Source: Octopus vulgaris (taxonomy: Eukaryota). Taken from it: a stretch of 64,000 nt of DNA. Location: positions 156,674,001 through 156,738,000 of the forward strand of contig OX597817.1 of NCBI GenBank assembly GCA_951406725.2, in the 5' to 3' direction. Positions 15,001-64,000 of the stretch are shown one piece after another (position 1 is the stretch's first letter; every line of letters starts with the position of its first letter). The position numbers are program-made.

Positions 15001-18000
15001 CAGCAGACATTGTATCCTTAATGATCACAAATTAACAGTCTAACCAGTGTTTTTATAACCCATGTTTAACTGTTTTCCTTATAGGGAATTAACCCTGCTA
15101 TCAGTGAATGTGTTAATTATTGTTATAATTTTGGGGATTTTTCACCCACATCTTAACCATTTTTTAAACTTGTATTAACAATATTCTCTGGTGAATTATA
15201 AACCATTTTCAGGGGTTCTGTGTTGTTTCCCCTCATTTTACTTTGTCATTTTTCAACCCTTTTTTTTCCTCTCTTTCATCATTGTAACAAACCTCCAAGA
15301 ACTATTGTAAATTCTAGGTCAGCAAAAAAAAGGCTACCATGGTTTTTTTTTTTTTTTGTTTTTGTAGTTTATTTTTTATATCATCACCCAATTCCCCTTT
15401 GTCCCCCTTTATTTTCATCATTGACAGTCAAACAACTCTCTTCTACTGAACCATTCTATTGTATTCATTTTATTATTTTCAGAGCTTGTTAGCCATAGAA
15501 CTACTGAACTTGCACAAGCAAGAGACCGACTTTCTGAAGAAATGGAGAGTAACCAACACACGCCATCAGCGACGGGTGTGTAGACTTTGTGAACCTTGTC
15601 AACAGCATGTTTAACAAAGTATAATCTCTTTCAAAAAAGTTAATAATAATAATGATAATAATAATAATAATATTATGCATGCCATTGGTCAACTAATTTT
15701 TTTTTTTTTTTTTGACTCTGCTTGTTTCAATGGTCTGAGAAATTGACTGTTTTGTAAGTAGTAAAGTTGAATGTAATATCAGTCTAGTTGCTAGTTTTCA
15801 AGGCAAAGGACAGTTCTACTAGATCAGCTGATATGGAACTTGCCAAAAGCCTCCAGATGACCACCCCAGTGGGTAACACTGGTCTTGATTTTGGTGACAT
15901 AGCTGACCTCTAAAATATTGTATATCATTCATTTTTTAAGAAAAAAAAAAATTATTCCCTTCCACCTTCTCTTTTTTATTTTTTTTTTCACACTTCGAAA
16001 TCTTTAGTAAATACTTAGGAAAATTTTCCTAGTGATTTTTGGAATTTTCTGTTTGTATTGAGTTTCTTCATCAGATTGACTTTTTTGAAATTGGATTTCA
16101 TTAATGTGATAATTCAAGCTATATTTCAACCGTTATTGATAATGTGTCAGTGTATGTATGCGTATGACTCTATCTATTCATATATATATATATATATATA
16201 TATATATATATATATAAATATATGTATATATATAATATGGACCGTACATATACATTTGTATATGTTTCTTGATACAGTGTATAATTTAAATTCTAGATCT
16301 TTTGGATTAGTTTGAGTGTGTGTATGTATGTGACTGAAGACTATTTCCTGTCATTCAAGCTAGTCTACTTCTACCTCATAGTAAAGATGGCTGTTCACCA
16401 ACTCCAGTGTTCAAACTCATTCAAGGAAACAGATTTCACATCACTGTACCATACTGCAAACTTTCAATTTTCGCATTTCGATAATTCAGCAAATTTGTAA
16501 CACTCTGGAAGGGTGGGGAGGAAACAGAACAATGCAGAAGGTTGATAGAAAACCAGCCCTTCTTCTCATCTAAAAAAATTTAAATATGGCTATATGTTTT
16601 TCGGCAGAGAACAGTGAAGTATTCTTCACATGCTGGTCTTTGGTCATCAATGTTTTCTTTTCATCTTGGCCTGTGACTTTTCAACATTTTTTATCTTTTT
16701 TTTTTTTACTTCCTGCACTAAAATCTTTATGGATTTCTTGTCTTTATTATTTGTTTGTCTATCTTTTTTATATATATTAAAAATAAGATTGATTAAATTG
16801 GGTTGGAAAGGTGTTTGTAAATGTAAACATTGAGATTACAGCAGTTGGGTGGGTTACATTTGGAGAGGAATTTAGTGGGTTTCATCTGTGAGTTTTTTTC
16901 TTTCAAAAAAATAAAAAGGCATTATCTGGGTGTTTTATTGTACAAATTTTAATGTTTTCTTCAATCTGACAGACTGATTATATCAGTAACAAACTCTCTT
17001 GCTATTCATGTTTCTTATTATGCAGATTTCATACTTTGGAGTATATTGGCAAAAATCTTCCTAAACTTATAAAGCTTTCCATCTTAATCTTTAAAACTAA
17101 TCCAGATTTTGCTCTGATTTTTTCCACAATATGTTCGTGTCATGAATATATTTTCAAGTTTTAATTTCCAAACTCATTTCCACTTTATAATTTTGTTAAG
17201 GGCCATCTCAAAGTAAGATTTTTAACTAATCCAAGTCAAGGAGTTTTTTCCCTTTATATTTATTTTTGTATGTGTGTGTATGCGTGGCCAAAAAAATTTA
17301 TGTAGTGTTGCAGAAAGTTCTACGTCGGAGCATATAGACACTGTATCAAGATGGTCAGCAATGCCAGTTTACTTGGGCTTCTTGATTACCACTTGATCTT
17401 CCAAAACTCAAGTTTTTCAAGTTGGGCCTCCTTAAGCAACTGAGCAAAAGCATGTGTGTGTATGTATGTATATGTACATATATATATGTGTGTCTGTATA
17501 TCTATATGTATATATATGTGTAAATTTTTCAAAGTATAACAATATAGTATTATAATTTTTCAATATATTTCAAATATTTGAGGTTCATCTTTTTTCTGAT
17601 TTTCTTTTTTCTTTTCTTCTCTTTAGTTTTTATTCAATTTTAGCAATTTTTCTTCTATATCTCTGCCTCCTTCACTTCACTTCTATACTCCATTTTTATT
17701 CTTGCAGTATCACAAGACTTGATTCAAAATTTCTTTTTTTCTTTTTCCAAATTTTGTTAATATTTTGGTTTGTATGATACTGTTTGTATATGATATACTT
17801 TCAAAAATTAGGGTTATCAGCTAGAGACCAAAATATACCTACTATACAAATTTACACTAGAAATTTGCAAATTTATTTATATGTATATATATATATATAT
17901 ATTAGCTATTATTATTATCATCAAACTCTTATTATTATTGTTGTTAGGGAAGTGGTCTGACGGAATCATTAGAACTTTGACAAAATGCCTTGTGGTATTT

Positions 18001-63000: not shown

Positions 63001-64000
63001 GGATTTTTTTTTTTTTTTTTACCTACCTTTAATTGTAAAACAAACAAAAACAAAACTATTGACAAAAAAACAAACCCTTGATAGATGATGAGAGTGAGGG
63101 TAAAACAAGATCAGTCGCTTCTATTATTCAAATGTTTGAGCAAACATCTGACACTGCTTTGCAAAGTTCAGCTACAGACATTGTTCGTGAAGTCCAGAAA
63201 TCAGCACAAGCAACGTTACGCAAAGAATCTCAGGAATTCGTAAAGCAAGACTCTTCTGAGTGGGTTGTCATTGACGACAGCGATCTTGATGGCTTTGATG
63301 CAGAAAAGGTGCCATCAGCCAATGGTACTTATGTTGAAACAGAAGATTCTGCTCCAAAGGTAGAAGAATGGGTAAAAGTCTCTGCTGTCAAAGAGAAATT
63401 TGAGGACAAAATTAAGAATGGCTCCATGTCTGAAAAAACTATTATACGTGAAGCCACCAAAGTTCACACAAGCACTTTAGCAAAACATAAATCTTCAGAG
63501 AAAGCTGATGATGTTGATCAACCTTACGGTGTCCCGGAACCGCCCGACGCCCACTTTAAGACTCCCTCAGATGATGAAAATCTTGAATTTTCTGAGAAAT
63601 TGAAAATGTTTACTGGTAAACATGCCCAAAATTATTATGTCACAACTCAACCTGATGAGTTATTAAGCTCTGATGAAGAAACACCAGACACTACCTCGAA
63701 AGGAAGTGAAAGGTCATACCAAACTGCATCTGAAACGAGTGAAATCCGATCTGAAACTGTAAAAGTGTCTTCTACAGGAGAGCAAAAAAGTGAAGTCGTT
63801 GAAGAACGACGCGAAAGCACTTCATCACTGATTGCCAAGTTTGAGGAAGCTACAACTCGTGAAAAGCCGTCAAAGAAAGAGGCCATGTCATTTGACAAGG
63901 ATAGCAAAGAAACAGTACAAAAAGAAGTGACAAAATCTTGGAAAACTGATTCTTCTCAAAGTGCAGTCCAGGAGATAAAGGAAAGTCACGTATTCCAAGA

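What the first reader, a model, noticed from the sequence alone, without database searches (positions are those of the whole stretch)
15483..64000. Modular cassette system: one gene with several giant exons and mini-exons, all symmetric phase 1 (putative multi-giant-exon ankyrin)
Seen: every exon I can delimit (15483-15575, 21917-27025, 36628-48656, 55470-55640, 60161-60223, 63085->end) starts two bases before a full codon, and those with a visible 3' end finish G|GT. Any subset can therefore be joined in frame, and the first two giant exons alone could add roughly 5,700 aa. Established: vertebrate ankyrin-G/B each have one giant neuronal exon, Drosophila Ank2 has L and XL giant exons, and C. 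elegans UNC-44 has a giant isoform. Inference: this is the giant-exon region of a cephalopod ankyrin with at least three large cassettes, each carrying a different lineage-specific repeat, allowing combinatorial control of scaffold length and chemistry. The ANK, ZU5 and death domains are not in the window.
Basis: partly seen in the sequence, partly recalled or inferred. Interest (0 to 1): 0.85.

Follow-up and report, generated by a model that had tools for sequence, protein, structure and literature searches.

The report
Octopus giant ankyrin tail exons
This stretch holds very long protein-coding exons of an octopus gene whose conserved parts match the tail of the membrane scaffold protein ankyrin, so it is an unlabelled member of the known family of giant nerve-cell ankyrins.

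Summary
The splice-flanked open frames are real. One of the six is not as described. The "12,029-nt exon" (36628-48656) is not one open frame. Three small indels (-1, +1, +2 nt) in two copies of a 624-nt tandem repeat cut it into four open segments, and they look like assembly errors. Exons 3 (3' end), 4, 5 and 6 are collinear with Octopus bimaculoides LOC106881226, a set of 7,487-7,707-aa models named "titin-like" or "uncharacterized". All their junctions are phase 1. Exon 4 is skipped in 2 of 15 isoforms, and exon 5 has a NAGNAG acceptor. The ankyrin identity is supported indirectly. The first ~135 aa of exon 3 form a conserved module, and the C-terminus of the O. bimaculoides protein is a second conserved block. 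Both occur in the same order downstream of the death domain, in a protein whose ZU5-UPA-death region matches human ankyrin-2 (E=1e-102) and in an Arion death-domain protein. Exon 2 (5,109 nt) is conserved in O. bimaculoides (83% aa), but nothing shows it is spliced to exon 3. Exon 1 has no support. Giant ankyrins with two long exons are already known in molluscs. Verdict: new member of a known kind.

The parts
15483..15575 (+).
   Evidence: AG/GT flanks and an open phase-1 frame. No homologue among the fetched proteins. 841 chance candidates of this kind exist in the non-exonic + strand.
21917..27025 (+). Giant exon candidate 2 (5,109 nt, phase 1-1), Ser/Asp-rich and disordered-looking
   Evidence: ORF 21901..27042 with good splice sites. 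83% aa identity over 1,203 aa to O. bimaculoides A0A0L8HCD8, a single-ORF model that reads through the donor. No Pfam family. No similarity to exon 3, exon 6 or ankyrin tails. Splicing to exon 3 is not shown.
23315..24493 (+). 30-nt (10-aa, YDSRRMTADx) tandem repeat, about 39 copies, inside exon 2
   Evidence: translation
36628..48656 (+). Giant exon 3 (12,029 nt as assembled), broken into four open segments by three indels
   Evidence: Collinear with O. bimaculoides XP_014787059.1 residues 10-1989. The 3' junction is confirmed by that protein. The 5' acceptor is inferred only.
36768..37166 (+). Conserved ~135-aa ankyrin-tail module (no Pfam family)
   Evidence: 38 further homologues at E<=0.001, mapped here by tblastn. 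It is the only copy in the window. It lies downstream of the death domain in P0030 and P0011. AlphaFold2 gives pLDDT 90.7, all-beta. No PDB fold match.
37609..45571 (+). Tandem array of 624-nt (208-aa) units: one partial copy, eleven copies at 94-100% nt identity, one diverged copy (77%)
   Evidence: Predicted disordered, pLDDT 46. pN/pS 0.68 among 8 copies.
38125..38755 (+). Stretch holding the three frame-breaking indels (-1 at 38125-38128, +1 at ~38325-38326, +2 at ~38750-38755)
46903..47769 (+). 48-nt (16-aa, YGLKHTDQHGDDHECR) His/Asp/Cys-rich tandem repeat, about 18 copies
55470..55640 (+). Exon 4, a 171-nt phase 1-1 cassette
   Evidence: 95% identity to P0001 residues 1979-2035. Absent from 2 of 15 O. 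bimaculoides isoforms.
60158..60223 (+). Exon 5 (66 or 63 nt) with a tandem TAGCAG acceptor (60158 or 60161)
   Evidence: Junction peptide in P0001. One-residue 'A' difference among isoforms. Sequence context.
63085..64000 (+). Start of exon 6, open to the window end
   Evidence: 93% identity to P0001 residues 2057-2355. P0001 runs on for about 5,300 aa more.

Best explanation
The window covers the long-exon part of the 3' half of an octopus ankyrin gene. It is the orthologue of O. bimaculoides LOC106881226, which NCBI names 'titin-like' or 'uncharacterized'. Shown: exons 3, 4, 5 and 6 are joined in that order at phase-1 junctions. Also shown: exon 3 opens with a conserved, probably folded ~135-aa module that sits downstream of the death domain in ankyrins of other invertebrates. 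Inferred: the exon that carried this module ancestrally was about 1 kb and ended in a phase-1 donor. In octopus it has grown to 12 kb through internal tandem repeats (624 nt and 48 nt). Further exons were added in the phase-1 intron before the conserved C-terminal exon. Any exon added inside a phase-1 intron must itself be 1-1 to keep the frame, which explains the uniform phase. Inferred from established work on giant ankyrins: inclusion of these exons yields a giant, strongly acidic, largely disordered tail on a membrane- and spectrin-bound scaffold. That tail acts as a spacer or multivalent docking arm in neurons. Exon 2 is probably a further, non-homologous long exon of the same gene. Exon 1 is unproven. 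The three indels in exon 3 are most likely consensus errors of the assembly.
For: Collinear tblastn of XP_014787059.1 (P0001) on the window: residues 10-520, 362-1598, 1373-1989, 1979-2035 and 2057-2355 at 68-95% identity. Module homology: besides P0001, 38 proteins hit at E<=0.001. Among them P0030 has UPA_2 (E=1.8e-52) and Death (E=4.9e-14), and its residues 1-364 match human Ankyrin-2 4d8o at E=1e-102. All 7 of its PDB hits are ankyrins. P0011 and P0070 (Arion vulgaris) have a death domain. P0030, P0011 and P0070 share two blocks with P0001 in the same order: the module (P0001 30-215) and the extreme C-terminus (P0001 7582-7658). The blocks lie 126-170 aa apart in the short proteins and about 7,370 aa apart in octopus. 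19 of 38 homologous ORFs end in G[KN] within their last 16 aa, against 38 of 912 background windows. This fits read-through of a conserved G|GTAA phase-1 donor. Indels: two of the three sit at sites where repeat copies differ and look like merges of the two variants, and the third is a T-run length change. All four segments stay open, including 3,302 codons downstream of the breaks. Jegla et al. 2016 (PMC5135030, section 8 and passages read) report giant ankyrins in molluscs, with the long exon downstream of the death domain in protostomes. They found two long exons in 8 of 23 loci, including Aplysia.
Against: No ANK, ZU5, UPA or death-domain sequence lies in the window, so physical linkage to an ankyrin core is not shown. 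The O. bimaculoides models start at an ATG inside exon 3 and carry no ankyrin name. The module is not exclusive to proven ankyrins. P0036 (2,706 aa) matches it in 20 stretches and shows no ankyrin domain. 34 of the 38 hits are short, unnamed ORFs or lack any informative domain. A profile of the module did not hit human ankyrin-1 in the PDB set. Exon 2's orthologue was found only as a stand-alone 1,196-aa ORF model. No 2,980-5,000-aa model contains it. Exon 1 has no homologue. As assembled, exon 3 cannot be translated through.
Confidence: 0.65

Rival explanations
1. Exons 3-6 belong to an independent 'tail-only' giant gene. This could be a paralogue of the ankyrin tail or a transcript from an internal promoter. 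It would start at the ATG at the head of exon 3 and never be joined to ANK/ZU5/UPA/death exons.
For: All 15 listed O. bimaculoides models start inside exon 3: 13 at an ATG near its head and 2 at an ATG within a repeat unit. They are annotated as their own locus. No ankyrin core is in the 36 kb upstream of exon 3. The module also occurs in a multi-copy protein without ankyrin domains, P0036.
Against: The frame is open upstream of that ATG back to a good acceptor at 36628, as in a 5'-truncated model. Two blocks are shared in the same order with proteins that carry UPA and death domains. Cephalopod introns in this window are 2.9-9.6 kb, so the core exons can simply lie further upstream.
Confidence: 0.2
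2. Exon 2 (21917-27025) is not part of this gene's transcripts. It would be a separate single-exon gene or a conserved ORF within an intron.
For: Its only homologue is a stand-alone ORF model that reads through the proposed donor. An ATG lies 8 codons into the frame and a stop 17 nt past the donor. It has no similarity to any other part of the gene or to ankyrin tails. Phase compatibility with exon 3 has about a 1-in-3 chance.
Against: It is on the same strand, with good acceptor and donor at the ORF ends in the same phase as all verified junctions. Its composition (Ser/Asp-rich, acidic, internally repetitive) and its divergence from O. bimaculoides (83%) resemble exon 3 (79-85%). Non-homologous second long exons are known in Aplysia and Drosophila ankyrins (PMC5135030, section 8).
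Confidence: 0.25
3. The three indels in exon 3 are real, so this allele cannot make the giant isoform. Translation would stop at 38184-38186.
For: The sequence as given carries them. The simple rescue considered, splicing between unit boundaries, does not restore the frame by my reading of the phases.
Against: 3,302 codons downstream remain open, which is unexpected for a dead exon. Two indels look like merges of neighbouring repeat variants and one is a homopolymer length change. All three lie in two adjacent, 99%-identical copies, where consensus building is hardest.
Confidence: 0.15

Closest known systems
Protostome giant ankyrins (Drosophila Ank2-L/XL; Aplysia and Lottia ankyrins; Jegla et al. 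2016, PMC5135030)
   Same: Very long exons downstream of the death domain. Loci may have two non-homologous long exons. The long exons carry lineage-specific tandem repeat arrays, and their sequence is not conserved between distant species.
   Different: Here there are at least two and probably three or more long exons. The repeat unit is 624 nt, whereas the paper gives 36-228 bp. No cephalopod is in that survey: 'octopus' occurs 0 times in its text. Linkage to the ankyrin core is not shown here.
Octopus bimaculoides LOC106881226 (XP_014787059.1 and 18 further isoforms, 'titin-like' or 'uncharacterized')
   Same: Orthologue of exons 3-6 with the same junctions, the same 16-aa repeat and the same module.
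   Different: It has about 3 diverged 208-aa units, with the motif 7 times. The window has about 12 near-identical units and 27 motifs. It is 79-95% identical, so it comes from another species. It is not annotated as ankyrin.
Vertebrate giant ankyrin-G (480 kDa) and ankyrin-B (440 kDa)
   Same: A neuron-type giant isoform made by including one very long exon that encodes an extended tail.
   Different: The vertebrate exon lies between the UPA and death domains (PMC5135030; abstract of PMC12798937 as listed). There is no sequence similarity. SxIP-like motifs are absent from the window's exons.
C. elegans UNC-44 giant isoform
   Same: A giant ankyrin with a repeat-rich long exon downstream of the core (PMC5135030, section 8).
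   Different: No sequence relation was tested or expected.

Membership tests
Ankyrin (canonical) | N-terminal array of 24 ANK repeats | not testable with these tools
   Not in the window (Pfam on exons and on 73 other ORFs). The flanking scaffold is not available.
Ankyrin (canonical) | ZU5-ZU5-UPA spectrin-binding cassette and death domain | not testable with these tools
   Absent from the window. P0030, which carries them, matches the window only at the module.
Ankyrin (canonical) | Tail sequence homologous to, and collinear with, the post-death-domain tail of proven ankyrins | tested here: met
   The module is at 36768-37166 (P0030 E=3e-20, P0011 E=3e-28). The orthologue P0001 also shares the C-terminal block (E about 1e-14 to 1e-15). 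P0030 is an ankyrin by PDB match (E=1e-102).
Giant ankyrin (Jegla et al. 2016) | One or more exons of thousands of nt within the ankyrin gene, downstream of the death domain in protostomes | tested here: inconclusive
   Long exons of 5.1 and 12.0 kb are present. Their position downstream of the death domain follows from collinearity. Being in the same transcript as the core is not shown.
Giant ankyrin (Jegla et al. 2016) | Alternative inclusion of the long exon, giving short and giant isoforms | not testable with these tools
   No transcript data. The O. bimaculoides isoforms vary only in small exons and within repeats.
Titin-like (NCBI's automatic name for the orthologue) | Ig/Fn3 domain arrays and a kinase domain | tested here: not met
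   No Pfam family on any window exon apart from one chance hit, DUF3880. The 5,300 aa of P0001 beyond the window were not scanned because the protein exceeds the tool's size limit.

The most novel reading that the evidence does not exclude
Octopus ankyrin carries three or more non-homologous giant exons. With the core, they would give a tail well above 9,000 aa. One exon holds a 208-aa unit amplified to about 12 near-identical copies in this species, against about 3 diverged copies in O. bimaculoides. That gives 27 copies of a Y-H-V-D-x-P...L-E-x-L-H-R-V motif. The length and valency of the axonal scaffold would then be a fast-evolving, possibly polymorphic trait in cephalopods. The tail is anchored by a previously undescribed, confidently folded all-beta module shared by invertebrate ankyrin tails.
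Probability: 0.3. Interest if true: 0.55.

Novelty: new member of a known kind. Interest (0 to 1): 0.4.

Why it matters
The finding would give the correct identity to an octopus locus that public annotation calls "titin-like" or "uncharacterized". It would add cephalopods to the animals known to have giant ankyrins. Cephalopods have large brains and giant axons but no myelin. The locus shows how a giant exon can grow from an ordinary tail exon by tandem amplification. It also explains why all exons added inside a phase-1 intron are 1-1. Finally, it flags a conserved, probably folded tail module that has no family entry and no structural match. None of this overturns current views, because giant ankyrins with two long exons are already described in molluscs.

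Tried and rejected
- Pfam on every exon gave nothing real.
- Exon 6 against proteins of 533-2,000 aa gave no hit. The true relatives are longer than that range.
- Exon 2 against proteins of 2,980-5,000 aa gave no hit. The second hit (P0073, 14% identity) is taken as a low-complexity match.
- A profile of the module against PDB sequences gave 3 weak hits, none of them ankyrin. My recollection that vertebrate ankyrin C-termini carry a similar motif therefore stayed untested and is not used.
- The protein atlas gave no usable hit for the module.
- Foldseek of the module model against PDB gave a best E of 0.056 with TM <= 0.24. The hits were long hairpins of pore-forming proteins, taken as shape coincidence.
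- SxIP-like end-binding motifs occur 0 times in the window's exons, against 0.1-4.7 expected.
- Exon 1 peptide against all fetched proteins gave only chance-level matches.
- Rfam and tRNA scans of the window gave nothing.
- I considered splicing between unit boundaries (TTCCAG|GTCAAG) as a rescue of the frameshifts. I rejected it because the donor phase in the damaged copy does not fit the acceptor phase.
- P0002 gave a weak UBX hit over the module region (22.9 bits), taken as chance.
- Genome contigs was not scanned because it holds only bacteria and archaea. The phage, plasmid and E. coli collections were not relevant.
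Full report
**Observation**

The window has no N. All six proposed exons carry AG|...|GT at the stated coordinates.

The sixth, 36628-48656, is not one reading frame. 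It is 12,029 nt (mod 3 = 2) and shows 65 stops when read in one frame. The ORF list shows 36603..38186 and 38280..38783 in one frame and 38747..48784 in another.

The breaks lie in a tandem array of 624-nt units. The array holds one partial copy, eleven copies at 94-100% identity and one diverged copy at 77%. Aligning the copies shows three indels, all in copies 2 and 3:
- a T4 run instead of T5 at 38125-38128;
- one extra base at about 38325-38326;
- two extra bases at about 38750-38755.

The last two sit exactly where the copies differ from each other, and each reads like a merge of the two variants. The four segments between the breaks are each open and read the repeat consensus: 499, 67, 142 and 3,302 aa. 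Because 3,302 codons downstream stay open, I take the indels to be consensus errors in near-identical repeats. This is an inference and needs resequencing. Without them the exon would be 12,027 nt and phase 1-1.

**Chance**

The giant frames cannot be chance. Only 15 stop-to-stop ORFs of 150 aa or more exist in the window, and those outside the exons lie in repeats or microsatellites.

Mini-exons are another matter. The non-exonic + strand (45,619 nt) holds 841 open, phase-1-symmetric AG...GT segments of 60-400 nt. Fourteen of them also have a pyrimidine tract and G|GT. A 63-171-nt exon therefore needs outside support.

**What it is**

I searched each exon by itself. I did not build or search a joined, spliced model.

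Pfam finds nothing real on any exon. The first 518 aa of exon 3 were scored against 1.84 billion representative proteins and gave 39 hits at E<=0.001. The best is a 7,658-aa protein, Octopus bimaculoides XP_014787059.1, named "titin-like isoform X6". It is one of 19 isoforms of LOC106881226, 7,487-7,707 aa long among the 15 listed.

tblastn of this protein on the window is collinear:

| Protein residues | Window coordinates | Identity |
|---|---|---|
| 10-520 | 36678-38117 | 79% |
| 362-1598 | 44165-47797 | 68% |
| 1373-1989 | 46844-48688 | 85% |
| 1979-2035 | 55469-55642 | 95% |
| 2057-2355 | 63084-63998 | 93% |

At exon 5 most isoforms use an acceptor 3 nt upstream, at 60158. This is a TAGCAG tandem acceptor, and both forms occur among the isoforms. 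Exon 4's orthologue is missing from 2 of the 15 listed isoforms.

The octopus protein runs on for about 5,300 aa beyond the window. The window's species is an octopod other than O. bimaculoides, judged from the 79-95% identity.

**Ankyrin identity**

The other 38 hits all match one stretch, 36768-37166, a module of about 135 aa. It is the only copy in the window.

Pfam was run on all 38 hits plus one Arion cluster member. Three proteins carry informative domains:
- P0030 (1,523 aa, organism not given) has UPA_2 and Death domains. Its residues 1-364 match human ankyrin-2 (4d8o) at E=1e-102, and all 7 of its PDB matches are ankyrins.
- P0011 and its cluster member P0070, from Arion vulgaris, have a death domain.

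In these proteins the module lies 515-730 aa after the death domain. They also share the extreme C-terminus with the octopus protein (residues 7582-7658, 46-53% identity). The two blocks are 126-170 aa apart in the short proteins and about 7,370 aa apart in octopus.

This is the layout that Jegla et al. 2016 give for protostome giant ankyrins, with the long exon downstream of the death domain (PMC5135030; I read section 8 and passages of sections 4, 6 and 9).

Several results count against the ankyrin reading:
- No ankyrin core is in the window.
- The O. bimaculoides models start at an ATG inside exon 3.
- One hit, P0036, repeats the module in 20 stretches without any ankyrin domain.
- A profile of the module does not hit human ankyrin-1 among PDB sequences.

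**Exon 2 and exon 1**

Exon 2 has an O. bimaculoides counterpart, A0A0L8HCD8 (1,196 aa, 83% identity over 1,203 aligned positions). That model is a bare ORF that reads through the donor. No model of 2,980-5,000 aa contains it. It resembles nothing else in the gene.

It is therefore a conserved coding frame on the right strand and in the right phase. Its splicing to exon 3 is not shown.

Exon 1 has no homologue.

**How it most likely works**

Half of the module's homologues (19 of 38) end in G-K or G-N within their last 16 residues, against 38 of 912 background windows. These are ORFs called on contigs. The pattern fits read-through of a G|GTAA donor, which would be a conserved phase-1 donor after a roughly 1-kb module exon.

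From this I infer that the octopus exon 3 is that ancestral exon, enlarged by the 624-nt and 48-nt arrays. I also infer that exons 4, 5, 6 and later ones were added in the phase-1 intron before the C-terminal exon. Only 1-1 exons can be added there without breaking the frame, which accounts for the uniform phase. From memory, phase-1 introns make up roughly 30% of animal introns.

The product is strongly acidic: net charge -305 in the main segment of exon 3 and -755 in the octopus protein. The 208-aa unit is predicted to be disordered, with pLDDT 46 from a shallow alignment. It is weakly constrained, with pN/pS 0.68, from 13 synonymous and 29 non-synonymous variant codons among 8 copies. It carries a short motif 27 times, against 7 times in O. 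bimaculoides.

By analogy with Drosophila Ank2-XL, whose repeats are thought to act as a spacer (PMC5135030, section 8), I propose a long spacer or multivalent docking arm on a membrane-bound scaffold. This part is inference.

In contrast, the module folds with high confidence: pLDDT 90.7, pTM 0.70, nine long beta strands. It has no structural match in the PDB (best E=0.056).

**Comparison and novelty**

Giant ankyrins are known across bilaterians, including the molluscs Lottia and Aplysia. In Jegla et al. 2016, 8 of 23 loci have two long exons, and repeat units range from 36 to 228 bp (PMC5135030, section 8). That paper does not mention octopus.

I made three literature searches:
- "giant ankyrin" with "cephalopod" gave 1 paper, and in it the terms occur only in the reference list.
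- "ankyrin" with "long exon" and "octopus" gave 1 listing, seen only as a listing and apparently unrelated.
- "LOC106881226" gave 0 papers.

None of them found a description of a cephalopod giant ankyrin. The paper's supplementary tables could not be read.

The case is a new member of a known kind. Its points of note are the larger repeat unit, more long exons than the one or two reported per locus, and an orthologue that has gone unrecognised in annotation.

**Left unchecked**

The flanking scaffold and any transcript data were not available. The part of the O. bimaculoides protein beyond the window could not be scanned against Pfam because it is too long for the tool.

Noticed in passing
window 36717-37208: The conserved tail module is predicted with high confidence (pLDDT 90.7) as a set of long beta hairpins. 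It has no Pfam family and no PDB fold match. It may deserve a family of its own.
   Followed up: partly
window 38121-45000, each 624-nt unit boundary: Every unit boundary reads ...TTCCAG|GTCAAG... This looks like both an acceptor and a weak donor, and it falls in phase 1 in intact copies. Whether units can be spliced out is unknown.
   Followed up: partly
window 46903-47769: A 16-aa repeat rich in His, Asp and Cys (YGLKHTDQHGDDHECR) occurs about 18 times. The O. bimaculoides isoforms differ in copy number inside it. A metal-binding role is only a guess.
   Followed up: no
window 60155-60160: A tandem TAGCAG acceptor precedes exon 5. The O. bimaculoides isoforms include forms with and without the extra alanine.
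   Followed up: yes
window 2683-3020 and 12096-12431: Two copies of an interspersed repeat of about 340 nt lie in opposite orientation, 96-98% complementary and 9 kb apart. A further pair at 1163-1315 and 4848-5000 is 86% identical.
   Followed up: no
window 29128-29436 (-): A weak DDE_3 transposase match, below the curated cut-off (E=0.0017, 18.6 bits against 28.6), lies in the intron between exons 2 and 3. That intron is richer in G+C (0.35-0.40) than the other introns.
   Followed up: no
window 11377-11775 (+): A 133-aa ORF resembles, from memory only, the C-terminal end of a LINE ORF2. Pfam gives no hit.
   Followed up: no
window 19677-19938, 50904-51287, 55694-56133 and others: Long TA/AT microsatellites in the introns create spurious ORFs of 150-240 aa.
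   Followed up: yes
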